The notes under the pieces are model-generated. The model was not told where the DNA came from, did no database searches, and saw only the letters and a program-made list of their open reading frames with translations. A stretch of DNA of 64,000 nt from the human T2T-CHM13v2.0 reference genome, Homo sapiens. The position numbers and the translations under genes are program-made. Positions 1-61,600 of the stretch are shown in pieces (the first letter of the stretch is position 1; every line of letters begins with the position of its first letter). Where the stretch lies: the NCBI RefSeq assembly GCF_009914755.1, contig NC_060933.1; one strand, written 5' to 3'.

Positions 1-942
1 ATAGAATCAATCCGAATGTAATGGAATGGAATGGAACGGAATGGAATGGAATGGAATGGAATGGAATGGAATGGAATCAACCCGAGTGCAATGGAATGGA
101 GAGGAATGGAATGGAATGGAATGGAAACTACCCGAATGGAATGGAATGTAATGGAGTGTAAGGGAATTGAATAGAATCAATCCGAATGTAATGGAATGGA
201 ATGGAACGGAATGGAATGGAATGGAATGGAATGGAATGGAATCGAATGGAATGGAATGCAATGGAATGGAATCAACCCGAGTGCAATCGAATGGAATCGA
301 ATGGAATGGAATGCAATGGAATGGATTCAACTTGAATGGAATGGAAAGAATGGAATCAACACGAGTGGAATGCCATGGATTGGAATGGAATGGAATGGAA
401 TCAACCCGAGTACAGGGGAATGGAATGGAATGGAATGCAATGGAATGGAATCATCCGTAATGGAATGGAAAGGAATGGAATGGAATGGAATGGAATGCAA
501 TGGAATGGAATGGAATCAACTCGATTGCAATCGAATGGAATGGAATGGAATTAACCCGAATAGAATGGAATGGAATGGAATGGAACGGAACGGAACGGAA
601 CGGAACGGAGTGGAATGGAATGGAATGGAATTGTATGGAATGGAATGGCATGGTACGGAATAGAATGGAATGGAAAGAATTGGAATGGAATGGAATCGAA
701 TGGAATGGAATGGAATGGAATGGAATCAACCCGAGTGCAATGGAATGGAGTGGAATGGAATGGAATGGAATGGAGCAACCCGAATGGAATGGAATGTAAT
801 GGAGAGTAAGGGAGTTGAATAGAATCAATCCGAATGTAATGGAATGAAACGGAATGGAATGGAATGGAATGGAATGGAATGGAATGGAATGGAATGGAAT
901 GCAATGGAATGGAATCAACCCGAGTACAATGGAACGGAATGG
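1..942 (+). repeat. Satellite 3 (HSat3/SatIII) array, G-rich (GGAAT)n strand on +; the array continues beyond the left window edge
   Basis: Continuous GGAAT pentamers with CAACCCGAGT spacers (e.g. AATCAACCCGAGTGCAATCG at 270-289; others near 78, 402, 727, 916). This is the established signature of human satellite 3. Confidence 0.97.
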
Positions 943-950
943 GTTTATTC
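936..950. other. Inversion breakpoint (strand-polarity switch) inside the HSat3 array
   Basis: The sequence reads ...GGAACGGAATGG|GTTTATTCCATTCC...: GGAAT repeats end at 942 and CATTC repeats start at 943, with no inserted spacer. Confidence 0.96.
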
Positions 951-1152
951 CATTCCATTCCATTCCATTCCGGATGATTCCATTCCATTGCATTCCATTC
1001 CATTCCATTCCCCTGCACTCGTGTTGATTCCATTCCCTTCCATTCCATTCCATTCCGTTCCATTCCATTCCATTCCATTCTATTCCGGTTAATTCCATTC
1101 CATTCCATTCCATTCCATTCCATTGCAATCGAGTTGATTGCATTCCATTCCT

Positions 1153-1349
1153 TTCCATTCCATTCCATTGCCTTGCATTCCACTCGGGTTGATTCCATTC
1201 CCTTCTTTCCACTCCATTACATTCCCTTCCATGATTGATTCCATTCCATTCCATTCCATTGCCTTGCATTCCACTCGGGTTGATTCCATTCCCTTCTTTC
1301 CACTCCATTACATTCCCTTCCATGATTGATTCCATTCCATTCCATTCCA
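1153..1349. repeat. 91-bp direct tandem duplication next to the inversion junction
   Basis: GCCTTGCATTCCACTCGGGTTG...CCCTTCTTTCCACTCC...CCCTTCCATGATTGATT starts at 1170 and again at 1261. ATGATTGATT occurs at 1231 and 1322 (offset 91). Confidence 0.9.
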
Positions 1350-2057
1350 GTTCATTCCATTGCAATCCATTCCAATCCATTCCATTCCATTCCATTCCAC
1401 TCGAGTTGACTTCATTCCATTCCTTTCCATTCCATTCCATTCCTTTCCACTCGAGTTGATTCCCTTCCATTCCAATCCATTGCATTCCATTCCATGCCAT
1501 TCCACTCGGGTTGATTCCATTCCTTTGCATTCCATTCCATTCCATTCCATTCCATTCCATTCCATTCCATTCCATTCCGTTGCATTCCATTCCATTACAT
1601 TCGGATTGATTCTATTCAACTCCCTTACTCTCCATTACATTCCATTCCATTCGGATTGTTCCATTCCATTCCATTCCATTCCACTCCATTCCATTGCACT
1701 CGGGTTGATTCCATTCCATTCCATTCCATTCCATTCCGGATGATTCCATTCCATTGCATTCCGTTCCATTACATTCCCCTGCACTCGCGTTGATTCCATT
1801 CCATTCCATTCCTTTCCATTCAATTCCATTCCATTACAATTCGTTCCATTCCATTCTATTCCGTACCATTCCATTCCATTCCATACCATTCCTTTCCATT
1901 CCATTCCATTCCATTCCATTCCGTTCCATTCCGTTCCATTCCATTCAATTCCATTCTATTCGGGTTAATCCCATTCCATTCCATTCCATTCCATTCTATT
2001 CCATTCCATTGCAACCGAGTTGAATCCATTGCATTTCATTCCATTCCATTCCATTCC

Positions 2058-9807: not shown

Positions 9808-11880
9808 GTTAATTCCATTCCATTCCATTCGATTGCAATCGTGTTGATTCCATTCCATTCCATTCCATTCCATTCCATTCCATTGCATTCCTTTCCATTC
9901 CATTACGGATGATTCCATTTCATTGCATTCCATTCCATTCCATTCCCCTGTACTGGGGTTGATTCCATTCCATTGCATTCCAATCCATGCCCTTCCAGTC
10001 GTGTTGATTCCATTCTTTCCATTCCATTCAAGTTGAATCCATTCCATTGCATTCCATTCCATTCGATTCCATTCGATTGCACTCGGGTTGATTCCATTCC
10101 ATTGCATTCCATTCCTTTCCATTCCATTCCATTCCATTCCATTCCATTCCATTCCGTTCCATTCCATTCCATTACATTCGGATTGATTCTATTCAATTCC
10201 CTTGCACTCCATTATATTCCATTGCATTCGGGTAGTTTCCATTCCATTCCATTCCATTCCTCTCCATTCCATTGCACTCGGGTTGATTCCATTCCATTGC
10301 ATTCCATTCCATTCCATTCAATTCCATTCCGTTCCATTCCATTCCATTACATTCGGATTGATTCTATTCAACTCCCTTACTCTCCATTACATTCCATTCC
10401 ATTTCATTCCATTCCATTCCATTCCATTCCACTCCATTCCATTGCACTCGGGTTTATTCAATTCCATTCCATTCCATTCCATTCCATTCCATTCCATTCC
10501 ATTCCGGAAGATTCCATTCCATTGCATTCCATTCCATTCCATTCCATTGCTTTCCATTCCATTCCATTCCCCTGCACTCGCGTTGATTCCATTCCATTCC
10601 ATTCCATTCCATTCCATTCCTTTCCGTTCCATTCTATTCCATTCCATTCGATTGCAATCGAGTTGATTCCATTCCATTCCATTCCATTCCATTCCATTCC
10701 TTTCCATTCCATTACGGATGATTCCATTCCATTGCATTACATTCCATTCCATTCCCCTGTACTCGGGTTGATTCCATTCCATTCCATTCCATTCCATTCT
10801 ATTCCATTCCATTCCATTCCATTCCAGAAGTTTACATTCCATTGCATTCCATTCCATTCCATTCCCCTGCACTCGCGTTGATTCCATTCGATTCCATTCC
10901 ATTCCATTCCATTCCATTGCATTCCATTCCGATCCGTTCCATTCCATTCCATTCCATTCCATTCCGTTCCGTTCCATTCCATTCCATTCCATTGTATTCG
11001 GGTTAATTCCATTCCATTCCATTCAATTGCAATCGAGTTGATTCCATTCCATTCCATTCCATTCCATTCCATTCCATTCCATTCCATTCCATTCCATTCC
11101 TTTCCATTACATTACGGGTGATTCCATTCCATTTCATTCCATTCCATTCCATTCCCCTGTACTCGGGTTGATTCTATTCCATTCCATTCCAATCTATGCC
11201 ATTCCACTCGTGTTGATTCCATTCTTTCCATTCCATTCAAGTTGAATCCATTCCATTGCATTCCATTCCATTCGATTCCATTCGATTGCACTCGGATTGA
11301 TTCCATGGCATTGCATTCCATTCCATTCCATTCCATTGCATTCCTTTCCATTCCATTCCATTCCATTCCATTCGGATTCATTCTATTCAATTCCCTTACA
11401 CTCCATTAGATTCCATTCCATTCGTGTAGTTTCCATTCCATTCCATGCCATTCCTCTCCATTCCATTGCACTCGGGTTGATTCCATTCCATTCCATTCCA
11501 TTCCATTCCATTCCATTCCATTCCGGATGATTCCATTCCATTGAATTCCATTCCATTCCATTCCCCTGCACTTGGGTTGATTCCATTCCATTCCATTCCA
11601 TTCCTTTCTGTTCCATTCCACTCCATTCCATTCCATTCTATTCGTGTTAATTCCGTTCCATTCTATTCCATTCCATTCCATTGAAATCGAGTTGATTCCA
11701 TTCCATTCAATTCCATTCCATTCCATTCAATTCCATTCGGGATGATTCCATTCCATTTTATTCCATTCCATTCCATTCCACTGCACTCGGGTTGATTCCA
11801 TTCCATTCCATTCCATTACATTCCATTCCATTCCGTTCCATTTCATTCTATTCGGGTTAATTCCATTCCATTCCATTCCA
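9808..11880. repeat. ~2.07 kb block, copy 2 (paralogue of 5787-7859)
   Basis: Carries the same diagnostic variants as copy 1 at about +4021. Confidence 0.85.
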
Positions 11881-11920
11881 TTGCAATGGAGTAGATTCCA
11901 TTCCATTCCATTGCAATGGA
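11877..11920. repeat. Two copies, 30 bp apart, of the 14-bp palindrome TCCATTGCAATGGA
   Basis: The palindrome is at 11877-11890 and 11907-11920, forming a short tandem duplication. Confidence 0.9.
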
Positions 11921-47714: not shown

Positions 47715-50700
47715 GATTCCATTCGATTGCACTCGGGTTGATTCCATTCCATTGCATTCCATTCCATTCCATTCCATTCCATTCCATTCCGTTCCATTCC
47801 ATTTCATTACATTCAGATTGATTCTATTCAATTCCCTTACACTCCATTATATTCCAATCCATTCTGGTTGTCTCCATTCCATTCCATTCCATTTCACTCC
47901 ATTCCATTGCACTCGGGTTGATTCCATTCCATTCCATTCCATTGCATTCCATTCCATTCCATTCCGGATGATTCCATTCCATTGCATTCCATTCCATTCC
48001 ATTCCCCTGCACTCGGGTTGATTCCATTCCATTCCATTCCATTACATTCCGTTCCATTCCATTCCATTCCATTCGGATTGATTCTATTCAATTCCCTTAC
48101 ACTCCATTACATTCCATTCCATTCGGGTAGTTTCCATTCCATTCCATTCCATTCCTCTCCATTCCATTGCACTCGGTTTGATTCCATTCCATTCCATTCC
48201 ATTCCATTCCCTTACATTACATTCCATTCCATTCCGTTCCATTGTACTCGGGTTGATTCCATTCCATTGCATTCCATTCCATTCCATTCCATTCCATTCC
48301 ATTCCATTCCATTCCATTCCGTTCCATTCCATTACATTCGGATTGATTCTATTCAACTCCCTTACTCTCCATTACATTCCATTCCATTCGGGTTGTTCCA
48401 TTCCATTCCATTCCATTCCACTCAATTCCATTGCGCTCGGGTTGATTCCATTCCATTCCATTCCATTCCATTCCATTCCATTCCATTCCATTCCGGATGA
48501 TTCCATTCCATTGCATTCCGTTCCATTACATTCCCCTGCACTCGGGTTGATTCCATTCCATTCCATTCCATTCCATTCGATTCCATTCCATTCCAATTCT
48601 TTCCATTCCATTCTATTCTGTACCATTCCATTCCATTCCATACAATTCCATTCCATTCCATTCCACTCCGTTCCGTTCCGTTCCGTTCTGTTCCGTTCCA
48701 TTCCATTCCATTCCATTCTATTCGGTTTAATTCCATTCCATTCCATTCCATTCCATTCTATTCCATTCCATTGCAATCGAGTTGAATCCATTGCATTCCA
48801 TTCCATTCCATTCCATTCCATTCAATTCCGGAAGATTCCATTCCATTGCATTCCATTCCATTCCATTCCATTCCATTCCATTCCATTCCATTCCATTCCA
48901 TTCCATTGTACTCGGGTTGATTCCATTCCATTGCATTCCATTCCATTCCATTCCATTCCATTCCATTCCGTTCCATTCCATTCCATTACATTCGGATTGA
49001 TTCTTTTCAACTCCCTTACTCTCCATTACATTCCATTCCATTCGGGTTGTTCCATTCCATTCCTTTCCATTCCACTCCATTCCATTGCACTCGGGTTGAT
49101 TCCATTCCATTCCATTCCATTCCTTTCCGGATGATTCCATTCCATTGCATTCCGTTCCATTACGTTCCCCTGCACTCGGGTTGATTCCATTCCATTCCTT
49201 TCCATTCCATTCGATTCCATTCCATTCCCCTGCACTCGCGTTGATTCCATTCCATTCCATTCCTTTCCATTCCATTCCATTCCATTCCTTTCCGTTCCAT
49301 TCCATTCCACTCCATTCCATTCCGTTCCGTTCCATTCCATTCCATTCCATTCTATTCGGGTTAATTCCATTCCATTCCATTCGATTGCAATCGAGTTGAT
49401 TCCATTCCATTCCATTCCATTCCATTCCATTCCATTCCATTCCAGTCCTTTCCATTCCTTTCCATTCCATTACTGATGATTCCATTCCATTGCATTCCAT
49501 TCCATTCCATTCCCCGGTACTCGGGTTGATTCCATTCCATTCCATTCCAATCCATGCCATTCCACTCGTGTTGATTCCATTCTTTCCTTTCCATTCAAGT
49601 TGAATCCATTCCATTGTATTCCATTCCATTTGATTCCATTCGATTGCACTCGGGTTGATTCCATTCCATTGCATTCCATTCCATTCCATTCCATTCCATT
49701 CCATTCCTTTCCATTCCATTTCATTACATTCAGATTGATTCTATTCAATTCCCTTACACTCCATTATATTCCAATCCATTCTGGTTGTCTCCATTCCATT
49801 CCATTCCATTTCACTCCATTCCATTGCACTCGGGTTGATTCCATTCCATTCCATTCCATTGCATTCCATTCCATTCCATTCCGGATGATTCCATTCCATT
49901 GCATTCCATTCCATTCCATTCCCCTGCACTCGGGTTGATTCCATTCCATTCCATTCCATTACATTCCGTTCCATTCCATTCCATTCCATTCGGATTTATT
50001 CTATTCAATTCCCTTACACTCCATTACATTCCATTCCATTCGGGTAGTTTCCATTCCATTCCATTCCATTCCTCTCCATTCCATTGCACTCGGGTTGATT
50101 CCATTCCATTCCATTCCATTCCATTCCATTACATTACATTACATTCCATTCCATTCCGTTCCATTGTACTCGGGTTGATTCCATTCCATTGCATTCCATT
50201 CCATTCCATTCCATTCCATTCCATTCCATTCCATTCCGTTCCATTCCATTACATTCGGATTGATTCTATTCAACTCCCTTACTCTCCATTACATTCCATT
50301 CCATTCGGGTTGTTCCATTCCATTCCATTCCATTCCACTCAATTCCATTGCGCTCGGGTTGATTCCATTCCATTCCATTCCATTCCATTCCATTCCATTC
50401 CATTCCGGATGATTCCATTCCATTGCATTCCGTTCCATTACATTCCCCTGCACTCGGGTTGATTCCATTCCATTCCATTCCATTCCATTCGATTCCATTC
50501 CATTCCAATTCTTTCCATTCCATTCTATTCCGTACCATTCCATTCCATTCCATACAATTCCATTCCATTCCATTCCACTCCGTTCCGTTCCGTTCCGTTC
50601 TGTTCCGTTCCATTCCATTCCATTCCATTCTATTCGGTTTAATTCCATTCCATTCCATTCCATTCCATTCTATTCCATTCCATTGCAATCGAGTTGAATC

Positions 50701-58360: not shown

Positions 58361-61300
58361 CCCATTCCATTCCATTCCATTCCATTCCATTCCATTCCTT
58401 TCCATTCCGTTACGGATGACTCCATTCCATTGCTTTCCATTCCTTTCCATTCCCCTGTACTCGGGTTGATTCCATTCCATTCCATTCCACTCCATTCGGT
58501 TCCGTTGCATTCCATTCTATTGCATTCCATTCTATTCGGGTTAATTCCATTCCATTCTATTCCATTCCATTCCATTCCATTCCATTGCAATGGAGTTTAT
58601 TCCATTCCATTCCATTCCATTCCGGATGATTCCCTTCCATTGCATTCCATTCCATTCCATTCCCCTACACTCGTGTTGATTCCATTCCCTTCCATTCCAT
58701 TCCATTCCGTTCCATTCCATTCCATTCCATTCTATTCCGGTTAATTCCATTCCATTCCATTCCATGCCATTCCATTCCATTCCATTGCAATCGAGTTGAT
58801 TCCATTCCATTCCTTTCCATTCCATTCCATTGCCTTGCATTCCACTCGGGTTGATTCCATTCCCTTCTTTCCACTCCATTACATTCCCTTCCATTCCACT
58901 CGGAATGATTGATTCCATTCCATTCCATTCCATTTCATTCCATTGCAATCCATTCCAATCCATTCCATTCCATTCCATTCCACTCGAGTTGACTTCATTC
59001 CATTCCTTTCCATTCCATTCCATTCCTTTCCACTCTAGTTGATTCCACTCCATTCCAATCCATTGCAATCCATTCCATGCCATTCCACTCGGGTTGATTC
59101 CATTCCTTTGCATTCCATTCCATTCCATTCCATTGCATTCCATTCCATTCCATTCCGTTGCATTCCATTCCATTACATTCGGATTGATTCTATTCAACTC
59201 CCTTACTGTCCATTACATTCCATTCCATTCGGGTTGTTCCATTCGATTCCATTCCATTCCATTCCACTCCATTCCATTGCACTCGGGTTGATTCCATTCC
59301 ATTCCATTCAATTCCATTCCATTCCGGATGATTCCATTCCATTGCATTCCGTTCCATTACATTCCCCTGCACTCGGGTTGATACCATTCCATTCCTTTCC
59401 ATTCCATTCCATTCCATTCGATTCCATTCCGGATGATTCCATTCCATTGCATTCCATTGCATTCCATTCCCCTGCACTCGGGTTGATTACATTCCATTTC
59501 CTTCCCTTCCATTCCTTTCCATTCCATTCCATTCCATTCTATTCGGGTGAATTCCATTCCATTCCATTCCATTCCATTCCATTCCATTCCATTCCATTGC
59601 AATCGAGTTGATTCCATTCCATTCCATTCCATTCCGTTCCGGATGATTCCATTCCATTCCATTCCATTCCATTCCATTCCCCTGCAGTCGGGTTGATTCC
59701 ATTCCATTCCATTCTATTCCATTCTATTCCATTCCATTCCGTTCCATTCCATTCCATTCCATTCTATTCGGGTTAATTCCATTCCATTCCATTCCATTCC
59801 ATTCCATTCCATTCCATTCCAATCGAGTTGATTCCATTCCATTCCATTCCATTCCATTCCATTCCACTCCATTCCAGTCGTTTCCATTCCATTACACTCG
59901 GGTTGATTCCATTCTATTCCTTTCCATTCCATTCCATTCCGTTGCAATCGAGTTGATTCCATTGCTTTGCATTCCATTCCATTCCATTCCATTCCGGATG
60001 ATTCCATTCCATTGCATTCCATTCCATTCCATTCCCCTGCACTCGGGTTGATTCCATTCCATTCCACTCCATTCCATTCCATTCCATTCCATTCCATTTT
60101 ATTCGTGTTAATTCCATTCCATTCCATTCCATTCCATTCCATTCCATTCCATTCCATTCCATTACAATCGAGTTGATTCCATTCCATTCCATTCCTTTCC
60201 ATTCCATTCCATTCCAGTCCTTTCCATTCCATTCCACTCGGGTTGATTCCATTCTATTAGTTTCCATTCCATTCCATTCCCTTCCATTCCACTCTGGTTG
60301 ATTCCATTCCTTTCCATTCCACTCGAATACATTCCCTCCTATTCCACTCGGAACGATTCCATTTCATTCCATTCCATTCCATTCCATTCCATTCCAGTTC
60401 GTTCCATTCTTTCTATTCCGTACCATTCCATTCCATTCCATTCCTTTCCATTCCATTCTTTTCCACTCGTGTTGATTCCATTCCTTTCCGTTCCATTCGG
60501 TTTGAAGGCATTCCATTCCATTCAATTCCATTCCATTCCATTCCATTCCGTTCCGTTCCATTCCATTCCATTCCGTTCTATTCGGGTTAATTCCATTCCA
60601 TTCAATTCGATTGCCATCGAGTTGATTCCATTCCATTCCATTCCATTCCATTCCATTCCTTTCCATTCCATTACGGATGACTCCATTCCATTGCATTCCA
60701 TTCCATTCCATTCCCCTGTACTCGGGTTGATTCCATTCCATTCCATTCCACTCCATTCGGTTCCGTTGCATTCCATTCTATTGCATTCCATTCTATTCGG
60801 GTTAATTCCATTCCATTCAATTCCATTCCATTCCATTCCATTCCATTGCAATGGAGTTGATTCCATTCCATTCCATTCCATTCCGGATGATTGCATTCCA
60901 TTGCATTCCATTCCATTCCATTCCCCTGCACTCGTGTTGATTGCATTCCATTCCATTCCATTCCATTCCGTTCCATTCCATTCCATTCCATTCTATTCCG
61001 GTTAATTCCATTCCATTCCATTCCATTCCATTCCATTCCATTGCAATCGAGTTGTTTCCATTCCATTCCTTTCCATTCCATTCCTTTGCCTTGCATTCCA
61101 CTCGGGTTGATTCCATTCCCTTCTTTCCACTCCATTACATTCCCTTCCATTCCACTCGGAATGATTGATTCCATTCCATTCCATTCCATTTCATTCCATT
61201 GCTATCCATTCCAATCCATTCCATTCCATTCCATTCCACTCGAGTTGACTTCATTCCATTCCTTTCCATTCCATTCCATTCCTTTCCACTCGAGTTGATT

Positions 61301-61600
61301 CCATTCCATTCCAATCCATTGCATTCCATTCCATGCGATTCCACTCGGGTTGATTCCTTTCCTTTGCATTCCATTCCATTCCATTCCATTGCATTCCATT
61401 CCATTCCATTCCGTTGCATTCCATTCCATTACATTCGGATTGATTCTATTCAACTCCCTTACTCTCCATTACATTCCATTCCATTCGGGTTGTTCCATTC
61501 CATTCCATTCCATTCCACTCCATTCCATTGCGCTCGGGTTGATTCCATTCCATTCCATTCCATTCCATTCCATTCCGGATGATTCCATTCCATTGCATTC
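58330..61600. repeat. Diverged paralogous blocks, about 58330-59370 and 60590-61600 (offset ~2.26 kb)
   Basis: Shared GATTGCCATCGAG, GGATGACTCC (58414/60675), CCATTCGGTTCCGTTGC (58492/60753), GCAATGGAG, CCTTGCATTCC and GACTTCATTCC. Confidence 0.8.
58581..58594. other. 14-bp perfect palindrome TCCATTGCAATGGA at the uninverted paralogue of the junction's right arm (another copy at 60842-60855)
   Basis: Self-complementary sequence, followed by GTTTATTC(CATTC)4CGGATG, identical to 943 onward. Confidence 0.88.

What the first reader, a model, noticed from the sequence alone, without database searches (positions are those of the whole stretch)
936..950. The inversion breakpoint maps onto a rare palindrome that provides microhomology; both parental sites are present in the window
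Seen: 943 onward (GTTTATTC(CATTC)4CGGATG...CTCGTGTTGATTCCATTCCCTTCC...TATTCCGGTTAATT...GCCTTGCATT) matches 58595 onward for about 800 bp, apart from local indels. At 58581-58594 that paralogue is preceded by the perfect palindrome TCCATTGCAATGGA, one of very few places where the C-rich strand contains AATGGA. The left parent (48229/50151 type) read in reverse also gives AATGGA. The junction has AATGG with the following A lost. Inference: inverting an ancestral segment running from a 48229/50151-like site to a 58594-like site gives exactly this junction. This suggests a hairpin/microhomology-mediated template switch enabled by one substitution (GCAATCGAG to GCAATGGAG). Frequent polarity switches in chr9 HSat3 are known from the T2T assembly; I do not know whether this palindrome mechanism has been described.
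Basis: partly seen in the sequence, partly recalled or inferred. Interest (0 to 1): 0.8.

Follow-up and report, generated by a model that had tools for sequence, protein, structure and literature searches.

The report
One amplified HSat3 strand-switch junction
The strand flip at this spot in the chromosome 9 satellite is real and lies beside a short palindrome, but it is one old junction copied about twenty times along the array, not a local inversion whose parents sit in this window.

Summary
The sequence observations hold. The window has one polarity switch, G-rich 1-942 to C-rich 943-64000. The right arm matches 58595 onward (about 98% for about 750 bp). 58595 is preceded by the perfect palindrome TCCATTGCAATGGA, and AATGG occurs only 4 times in 63 kb of C-rich strand.

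The junction 21-mer occurs 20 times on chr9 (55.9-75.5 Mb, both orientations) with near-identical flanks. It is therefore one old event spread by segmental duplication, including CHM13's known 9qh+ duplication. The sites in the window are paralogues, not parents.

The right parent very probably did carry the palindrome. 14 of 20 sampled palindrome modules are 97-98% identical to the right arm, against 8 of 8 non-palindrome modules at 86-88%. A break this close to a microhomology is unlikely by chance (p about 0.003).

- Strict microhomology is 0 nt, and an A is missing in all 20 copies.
- The palindrome forms no stable hairpin.
- The predicted reciprocal junction is absent from the genome.
- The G-rich block is closed upstream by a different amplified junction (80 copies).

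A one-sided event, either a deletion across an older switch or a template switch, fits better than a simple inversion.

The parts
1..942 (+). G-rich (GGAAT-strand) left arm. It is the last 942 bp of a 21.7-kb G-rich block that begins at chr9:66505230, outside the window.
931..951 (+). Junction 21-mer GGAACGGAATGG|GTTTATTCC (family A, G-rich to C-rich). The break lies between 942 and 943.
   Evidence: 20 genome copies. All 20 are identical over 46 bp to the left and over 45 bp to the right, apart from 4 single mismatches.
943..1690 (+). Right arm. This module is 97-99% identical to palindrome-preceded modules at 58595 and 60856, and to 14 of 20 sampled genome sites.
1165..1346 (+). 91-bp tandem duplication inside the right arm. 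It is present only in this copy and in its 9qh+ twin at chr9:55.92 Mb (2 of 20 copies).
   Evidence: the gap positions
58581..58594 (+). Perfect palindrome TCCATTGCAATGGA directly 5' of GTTTATTCC. It marks the closest uninverted paralogue of the right breakpoint.
58595..59330 (+). Paralogue of the right arm (705 matches, 11 mismatches, 104 gap bases).
60842..61571 (+). Second palindrome (60842-60855) with a paralogue of the right arm (60856-61571; 696/15/89). It is followed by GTTGATTCC instead of GTTTATTCC.
11877..11920 (+). Two further exact copies of the palindrome (11877-11890 and 11907-11920). The module after 11921 is 90% identical to the right arm.
48229..48298 (+). Uninverted paralogue of the left breakpoint, identical for 70 bp to the reverse complement of the left arm end and preceded by ...ACATTCCATT.
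50151..50220 (+). Second uninverted paralogue of the left breakpoint, also identical for 70 bp.

Best explanation
Window 942|943 is one copy of a single old G-rich-to-C-rich junction ('family A') in the chr9 HSat3 array.

Shown:
- The junction arose once.
- It was carried to at least 20 places, in both orientations, by large segmental duplications. Six of these are twins made by CHM13's multi-megabase 9qh+ tandem duplication.

Strongly inferred:
- The right-hand parent was a module that begins directly after the 14-bp palindrome TCCATTGCAATGGA. The left-hand parent was a ...CCCGAGTACAATGGAACGGAATGG|AATGG... module read on the opposite strand.

Inferred:
- The palindrome mattered because its right half is one of the very few AATGG(A) words on the C-rich strand, not because it forms a hairpin. 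That word offers homology to the G-rich strand during end joining or a template switch.
- The join was imprecise, and one A was lost.
- The same upstream C-to-G junction family (B, 80 copies) closes G-rich blocks that end either in A or in another family (C, 42 copies), and no reciprocal product exists. A was therefore most likely made by a one-sided event in a block that was already inverted. That event was either a deletion spanning an older G-to-C switch or a replicative switch, and not a fresh two-break inversion.
For: Single origin and spread:
- There are 20 hits of the 21-mer, all on chr9, 10 on each strand.
- All 20 are G-to-C switches.
- The 1-kb flanks have only 0-58 mismatches against ours.
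- The flanks are identical over 46 bp to the left and 45 bp to the right, with 4 single mismatches.
- Six pairs have identical rows in the tree and are offset by about 10.6 Mb. This matches the 9qh+ tandem duplication described by Nurk et al. (PMC9186530, passages read).

Right parent:
- Among 46 window modules, the two best (0.976 and 0.971) follow the palindrome. GCAATCGA modules reach at most about 0.92, and CACTCGG modules reach 0.85-0.90.
- 14 of 20 sampled GCAATGGA-GTTTATTCC sites are 97-98% identical to the right arm. 8 of 8 sampled GCAATCGA-GTTTATTCC sites are 86-88%.
- In the tree, 19 of 20 junction rows and 16 of 23 palindrome rows form one clade (SH-aLRT 95). Other palindrome rows (11921, L066/L067) lie just outside it, so the palindrome is older than the junction.

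Non-random position:
- AATGG occurs only 4 times in 63,058 bp of C-rich strand.
- The probability of 5 nt or more of microhomology with a 1-nt slip is 0.0029.

One-sided event:
- The reciprocal junction is absent.
- Family B is present 80 times. It lies in frame 8.2-21.7 kb upstream of A in 10 of 20 copies (coordinates).
- Coordinates place a family B junction about 12.7 kb upstream of a family C junction at three sites.
- The flanks of B do not continue the paralogues of A's parents.
Against: - Strict microhomology at the junction is 0 nt. The model needs an extra 1-nt loss.
- There are 1,124 palindrome+GTT sites in the genome, yet only this one junction family sits on one. The palindrome is therefore not a hot spot, and a post-hoc p of 0.003 could still be chance.
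- No undeleted progenitor was found. The B...C block at 52.34 Mb has no exact left-parent 26-mer among the listed hits. The type C unit at 66.37 Mb has only about 94-97% matches to A's arms.
- Only 20 of the 40 palindrome-form sites and 8 of the 60 other-form sites among the first 100 listed were sampled. The remaining 85 of 185 sites were never seen.
- Paralogues stand in for parents that no longer exist. Gene conversion within the array could mislead the tree.
- One copy (L028) has a right arm that groups elsewhere in the tree.
Confidence: 0.6

Rival explanations
1. A local two-break inversion or hairpin-mediated template switch ran between a 48229/50151-like site and a 58594-like site, with both parents still in this window and a reciprocal palindromic junction upstream.
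For:
- The microhomology AATGG(A) is present in both.
Against: - There are 20 copies with the same flanks spread over 20 Mb.
- The reciprocal junction is absent.
- The real upstream junction is of another kind.
- The left arm is only about 96% identical to window paralogues over 800 bp.
- The hairpin is weak, at -2.1 kcal/mol.
- The A is lost in all copies.
Confidence: 0.07
2. A true ancient two-break inversion whose C-to-G partner is family B, or is lost. Some sequence was lost at the breaks, and the whole inverted block was later amplified.
For: - B lies in frame upstream of A in 10 of 20 copies at 8.2-21.7 kb.
- In our copy the block runs from 66505230 to 66526942.
Against: - B is four times as frequent as A, and coordinates place it upstream of family C junctions as well.
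- The sequence on the G-rich side of B, read in reverse, ends ...CGGGTTGTTTCCATTCCATTCCATTCCGTG. It does not end ...CCATTGCAATGGA, so the pieces are not contiguous in any paralogue seen.
- The C-rich side of B does not match what precedes L-type sites.
Confidence: 0.17
3. Blunt non-homologous joining with no role for the palindrome. The adjacency is coincidence.
For: - Strict microhomology is 0 nt.
- There are 1,124 palindrome sites and only one junction family on them.
- The test was chosen after the pattern had been seen.
Against: - The probability is about 0.003 that a random break pair lands within 1 nt of a microhomology of 5 nt or more.
- A second family (C) also joins at a near-palindrome, with 2-5 nt shared (read by eye).
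Confidence: 0.14
4. Assembly or chimera artefact, or independent recurrent formation at a hot spot.
For: None found. Reads were not available to check.
Against: - The 20 copies have copy-specific variants and differing distal contexts.
- The 46 bp immediately to the left are identical across copies, and homologous flanks extend for kilobases. This argues for descent, not recurrence.
Confidence: 0.02

Closest known systems
Strand switches ('inversion breakpoints') of the chr9 HSat3B5 array in T2T-CHM13 and pangenome assemblies
   Same: This junction is one of them. Altemose et al. (bioRxiv 10.1101/2021.07.12.452052, section 7 read) report over 200 breakpoints in chr9 HSat3B5 plus the beta-satellite arrays. 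10.64898/2026.09.03.749043 (passages) gives about 129 switches per haplotype. 10.64898/2026.07.22.740206 (passages) finds that the number of switches scales with array length (r = 0.90).
   Different: Those texts, as far as I read them, count switches and do not resolve junction sequences. Here three junction sequences account for 142 switch points in CHM13: A 20, B 80 and C 42. This indicates founder junctions carried along by expansion, as opposed to many separate events. The supplements of the bioRxiv papers were not seen and may bear on this.
Microhomology-mediated end joining, and replicative template switching (FoSTeS/MMBIR); names from general knowledge
   Same: A short word (AATGG/AATGGA) is shared by both inferred parents at the break. 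The position is non-random.
   Different: The shared word is not kept intact. Strict microhomology is 0 nt and one A is missing in 20 of 20 copies.
Fold-back inversion / inverted duplication at short inverted repeats (ODIRA-type models; PMC10766183 and PMC10766186, seen only in the search listing)
   Same: A strand switch lies next to a short palindrome.
   Different: The two arms are not mirror images. The reverse complement of the left arm is at most 94% identical to the right arm, which is ordinary satellite similarity. The break is at the edge of the palindrome, not at its centre.
CHM13 9qh+ multi-megabase tandem HSat3 duplication (Nurk et al. 2022, PMC9186530, passages read)
   Same: It explains six twin pairs of the junction offset by about 10.6 Mb, including ours with chr9:55922665 (999/1000 and 1000/1000 identical).
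   Different: It accounts for only 6 of the 20 copies. The other 14 reflect older duplications in both orientations.

Membership tests
HSat3 array of chr9 (9q12) | Sequence built from diverged CATTC/GGAAT pentamers with strong strand asymmetry, located in the chr9 pericentromeric array | tested here: met
   About 50 GGAAT or ATTCC per 500 bp on one strand and 0 on the other. The window is chr9:66526001-66590000 (hub note). Subfamily B5 was not tested with its diagnostic k-mers. The name is taken from Altemose et al..
Junction copies identical by descent (amplified junction) | Several copies share the junction and homologous flanks on both sides | tested here: met
   20 of 20 copies share the flanks.
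Microhomology-mediated junction | Bases common to both parents are present once at the joint, with no loss | tested here: not met
   The inferred parents predict ...AATGGAGTTT. The junction reads ...AATGGGTTT in 20 of 20 copies. There is a 5-nt match only if a 1-nt slip is allowed.
Reciprocal two-break inversion | A second junction joins the two complementary parental flanks | tested here: not met
   The predicted 20-mer has 0 hits. The 28-mer has no switch-type hit on chr9 at 2 mismatches or fewer. The actual upstream junction has other flanks.
Fold-back / palindromic inverted duplication | The arms on the two sides of the junction are reverse complements of each other | tested here: not met
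   Best identity is 90.7-94.4% over 1 kb, the general level for this satellite. The flanks of junction B give 89%.
Hairpin/cruciform-prone palindrome | A stable intrastrand fold of the palindrome | tested here: not met
   -2.1 kcal/mol for the palindrome alone. -3.1 kcal/mol in 45-nt context, z = -1.5, with 16 of 200 shuffles folding as well.
Deletion across a pre-existing strand switch | An undeleted progenitor: a G-rich block with the left site, then an older switch, then the right site | tested here: inconclusive
   The general layout exists at the type C unit at 66.37 Mb, but with only 94-97% identity. No exact left-site 26-mer appears in the B...C block at 52.34 Mb among the listed hits.

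The most novel reading that the evidence does not exclude
The 130-200 strand switches of the chr9 HSat3 array are not many independent inversions. They descend from a handful of founder junctions: in CHM13, A has 20 copies, B 80 and C 42. These were carried along as the array expanded. The founders of the G-to-C kind formed at the rare places where the C-rich strand carries a G-rich-strand word or a palindrome (TCCATTGCAATGGA for A, a C(C/T)CGAG near-palindrome for C). In a strand-asymmetric satellite, such 'wrong-strand islands' would decide where polarity can flip.
Probability: 0.35. Interest if true: 0.55.

Novelty: new member of a known kind. Interest (0 to 1): 0.4.

Why it matters
Strand switches in the largest human satellite array are being counted across pangenomes and read as inversion events. 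If most are copies of a few founder junctions, three things follow:
- Their number measures array expansion, not inversion rate.
- The junction k-mers become lineage markers for tracing how 9q12 heterochromatin (9qh variants) grew.
- The few true founding events can be studied for mechanism.

For this window alone the result is modest. It is an ordinary passenger copy of an old junction.

Tried and rejected
- BLAST of the arms against the window timed out on the repeats. It was replaced by chunked Smith-Waterman scans.
- A first regular expression for the right-arm modules matched nothing because of a phase error. It was fixed.
- Alternative left parent (...GGAATGGGTTCAAC type), which would give a 3-nt microhomology with no deletion. 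No such context precedes the left-arm sequence in 328.6 kb of held DNA.
- Alternative right parent CTCGG|GTTTATTCC (27031 type), with 2-nt microhomology. Those modules are only 85-90% identical to the right arm.
- A-less parental variant CATTGCAATGG-GTTKATTCC. It has 0 hits.
- Recurrence at the sister variant. GGAATGG(N0-3)GTTGATTCCATTCC gave 4 hits, all preceded by C-rich sequence (CATTCCATTGGAATGGAG). They are point variants, not switches.
- Fold-back origin of junction A or junction B. Rejected.
- The type C unit at 66.37 Mb as undeleted progenitor. It has a similar layout but only 94-97% identity, so the result is not decisive.
- What normally precedes the G-rich side of junction B. No clear answer.
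Only 8 non-palindrome sites were compared as a result.
- Literature searches found no base-level description of HSat3 junction families. PMC11305138 and PMC11526998 held nothing relevant in the passages searched.

Full report
**What is in the window**

The window (chr9:66526001-66590000) is HSat3 throughout and holds exactly one polarity switch. GGAAT/ATTCC counts per 500 bp change from 54/0 to 0/52, and the change falls in the 100-bp bin 901-1000. The sequence reads ...CCCGAGTACAATGGAACGGAATGG|GTTTATTCCATTCCATTCCATTCCATTCCGGATG..., with the break between 942 and 943.

- *Right arm.* 943-1742 aligns to 58595-59330 with 705 matches, 11 mismatches and 104 gap bases. It aligns about as well to 60856-61571 (696/15/89). 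The next paralogues are near 90%. Identity to 58595 is 98.8% at first, 97% up to about 1690, and 87-93% in most bins beyond that, so 'about 800 bp' is fair.
- *Palindrome.* 58581-58594 is the perfect palindrome TCCATTGCAATGGA. It occurs 4 times in the window (11877, 11907, 58581, 60842), beside 37 copies of the one-substitution form TCCATTGCAATCGA.
- *Rarity of AATGG.* AATGG occurs only 4 times in the 63,058 bases of C-rich strand.
- *Left arm.* Its reverse complement is identical for 70 bp to 48229 and 50151, the only window sites with that motif. Over 800 bp, several other paralogues do as well, at about 96%.

**The junction is not local**

The window's whole assembly could be searched. The junction 21-mer GGAACGGAATGGGTTTATTCC occurs 20 times, all on chr9 between 55.92 and 75.53 Mb, 10 on each strand. 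I fetched 10 kb around each copy.

- All 20 are G-rich-to-C-rich switches. 19 have at least 5 kb of uniform polarity on both sides. One (chr9:70855025) has a right arm of only 1,136 bp before a C-to-G junction.
- The 1-kb flanks on both sides have only 0-58 mismatches against ours. Most of the remaining difference is indels.
- The 46 bp to the left and 45 bp to the right of the break are identical in all copies, apart from four single mismatches.
- Six pairs are identical over 650 bp and lie about 10.6 Mb apart. Our copy pairs with chr9:55922665 (999/1000 and 1000/1000). [quoted passage not shown] (PMC9186530, passages read).

The junction is therefore one event, older than these duplications. 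The sites at 58595, 60856, 48229 and 50151 are paralogues of its parents, not the parents themselves. It is not an assembly artefact of this spot. The copies carry their own variants, for example a 91-bp tandem duplication at 1165/1256 found only in ours and its twin. I could not check reads.

**Was the right parent a palindrome module?**

- In the window, 46 modules of the form GTT[GT]A..CC(...)GGATGA were ranked against the right arm. The two that follow the palindrome score 0.976 and 0.971. Those after GCAATCGA or GAAATCGA reach at most about 0.92. Those after CACTCGG reach 0.85-0.90.
- Genome-wide, GCAAT[C/G]GAGTTTATTCCATTCC has 185 sites. Of the first 100 listed, I counted 40 with G (palindrome) and 60 with C.
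14 of the 20 palindrome sites are 97-98% identical to the right arm over 600 bp, and the other six are 85-91%. All 8 non-palindrome sites are 86-88%.
- In a maximum-likelihood tree of 55 rows, 19 of the 20 junction arms and 16 of the 23 palindrome rows form one clade (SH-aLRT 95). 17 junction arms form a subclade (SH-aLRT 90). Other palindrome rows (11921, L066/L067) lie just outside.

The palindrome is thus older than the junction, and the right parent very probably began right after it. One junction copy (chr9:75533435) has a right arm that groups elsewhere in the tree. This is presumably a later exchange.

**Microhomology**

- Uninverted copies of the left module are preceded by ...CATT in all 16 cases found in 328.6 kb of held DNA. 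The left parent read in reverse therefore runs ...GGAACGGAATGG|AATGG. The right parent runs ...GCAATGGA|GTTTATTCC.
- Both carry AATGGA at the break. A join through that word would give AATGGAGTTT, but the junction reads AATGGGTTT.
- By the strict definition the junction has 0 nt of microhomology. With one base skipped it has 5 nt.
- No copy with 1-3 extra bases exists. No A-less parental variant exists.
- In 200,000 random pairs of breaks drawn from this array, 5 nt or more arise in 0.15% (strict) or 0.29% (one-base slip allowed). The position next to one of the only AATGG words on the C-rich strand is hard to put down to chance, but the test was made after the pattern was seen.
- The 18-mer for palindrome+GTT has 1,124 sites, and only this one junction family sits on one. 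The GTTGATTCC sister form yields 4 hits, all point variants with C-rich sequence upstream. The palindrome is a plausible helper, not a hot spot.

**Hairpin**

The palindrome alone folds at -2.1 kcal/mol. In 45 nt of context the best fold is -3.1 kcal/mol (z = -1.5; 16 of 200 shuffles do as well) and does not use the palindrome. A sampled non-palindromic copy, which also carries a GATTGC variant, folds better at -6.3 kcal/mol.

**The reciprocal prediction fails**

- The predicted C-to-G junction, as the 20-mer CATTCCATTGCAATGGAATG, has 0 hits in the genome.
- The 28-mer form with up to 3 mismatches gives thousands of ordinary sites. At 2 mismatches or fewer it gives nothing on chr9 that is a switch.
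- I located the real start of the G-rich block by sampling polarity upstream and then reading the interval. It is ...CCATTCCATTGCA|CACGGAATGGAATGGAATGGAAACAACCCG... at chr9:66505230, so the block is 21.7 kb long.
- Its G-rich side, read in reverse, ends ...CATTCGGGTTGTTTCCATTCCATTCCATTCCGTG. That is not the reverse complement of 58490-58580.
- Its C-rich side does not match what precedes the L-type sites.
- The two flanks of this junction are not mirror images (89%), and neither are the arms of A (at most 94%).

**Junction families**

- The C-to-G 23-mer (family B) occurs 80 times on chr9 (47+, 33-).
- The next G-to-C switch upstream, at chr9:66371094, reads GGAATCAACCCGAG|TTGATTCCATT. This is family C, and it occurs 42 times.
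- From the coordinates, B lies in frame upstream of A in 10 of 20 copies: 8.2 kb (twice), 14.0-14.1 kb (three times), 17.6, 19.1 and 21.2 kb (once each), and 21.7 kb (twice).
- In three further copies, B lies 8.4 kb away in the opposite frame. These form mirror arrangements A(-)-B-A(+) at 60.20-60.22 and 70.85-70.87 Mb.
- Coordinates also place B about 12.7 kb upstream of family C at three sites. I did not inspect those blocks.

One C-to-G family closing blocks that end in different G-to-C families means that at most one of the latter can be B's original partner. A fresh inversion would create its own C-to-G junction. A deletion that spans an older G-to-C switch, or a one-way replicative switch, creates only one new junction and needs the same-strand homology that the palindrome supplies. 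That is my preferred reading of how A arose, at roughly 0.4-0.45 within the overall explanation, and it is not shown. I found no undeleted progenitor:
- The B...C block at 52.34 Mb has no exact left-site 26-mer among the 100 hits listed out of 648.
- The type C unit at 66.37 Mb has the right layout, with an A-left-like module ending 4.2 kb before the switch and a palindrome module 9.4 kb after it. Identity there is only 94-97%.

**Comparison with the literature**

- Frequent strand switches in this array are known. Altemose et al. report over 200 breakpoints in chr9 HSat3B5 together with the beta-satellite arrays (10.1101/2021.07.12.452052, section 7 read).
- Another finds that switch number scales with array length (r = 0.90) and calls the switches stochastic by-products of expansion (10.64898/2026.07.22.740206, passages).
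- In six full-text searches I found no base-level account of the junctions or of junction families.
- Three junction sequences together mark 142 switch points in CHM13. This fits the length correlation and suggests passengers of expansion, not separate events. The pattern counts are lower bounds according to the tool's own text.

**Verdict**

The local inversion, the parents in the window, the hairpin, the exact product and the reciprocal junction do not. For this window the feature is an ordinary copy of an old junction. The wider founder-junction picture is the part worth following up.

Noticed in passing
L049:4222-4244 (chr9:66505222-66505244, 20.8 kb upstream of the window): C-to-G junction CCATTGCA|CACGGAATGGAATGG closes the G-rich block of our junction. 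The same 23-mer occurs 80 times on chr9 between 52.3 and 76.4 Mb (47+, 33-), so one sequence accounts for 80 C-to-G switch points in CHM13.
   Followed up: partly
L050:9981-10000 + L051:1-110 (chr9:66371080-66371104): A second G-to-C junction family, GGAATCAACCCGAG|TTGATTCCATT, has 42 copies on chr9. It sits on a near-palindrome (AAC C/T CGAG TT) and shares 2-5 nt between the likely parents, depending on whether the parent had CTCGGG or CTCGAG (read by eye).
   Followed up: partly
chr9 coordinates: 60202489(-), 60210881, 60219088(+); 70845492(-), 70853889, 70855025(-), 70863432, 70871644(+): Mirror arrangements A(-) - 8.4 kb - B - 8.2 kb - A(+). The 70.85-Mb version has one extra 9.5-kb unit, which explains the copy whose right arm is only 1,136 bp long (L019).
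   Followed up: partly
window 1165-1346: A 91-bp tandem duplication inside the right arm is present only in this copy and its twin at chr9:55.92 Mb (2 of 20). It arose after the split from the other copies and before the 9qh+ duplication.
   Followed up: yes
window 58595 vs 60856: Two palindrome-preceded modules lie 2,261 bp apart at the right end of the window, indicating a local longer-period repeat. One has GTTTATTCC and the other GTTGATTCC. With the GCAATCGA forms found elsewhere, all four combinations of the two variants exist, which implies recurrent mutation or exchange.
   Followed up: partly
chr7:58725949-58725976 and 59037545-59037572; also 58747521 and 59006831: Near-perfect palindromic C-to-G switch words (ATTCCATTCCATTGGAATGGAATGGAAT and its mirror) occur in mirrored pairs about 260-310 kb apart on chr7. 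This suggests a large inverted structure in the chr7 pericentromeric satellite.
   Followed up: no
chr9:52071124, 56860581, 60780560, 67473216: Four copies of a point variant, CATTCCATTGGAATGGAGTTGATTCC, in which the palindrome's GC is GG. This puts a full GGAATGG word on the C-rich strand without any polarity switch.
   Followed up: yes
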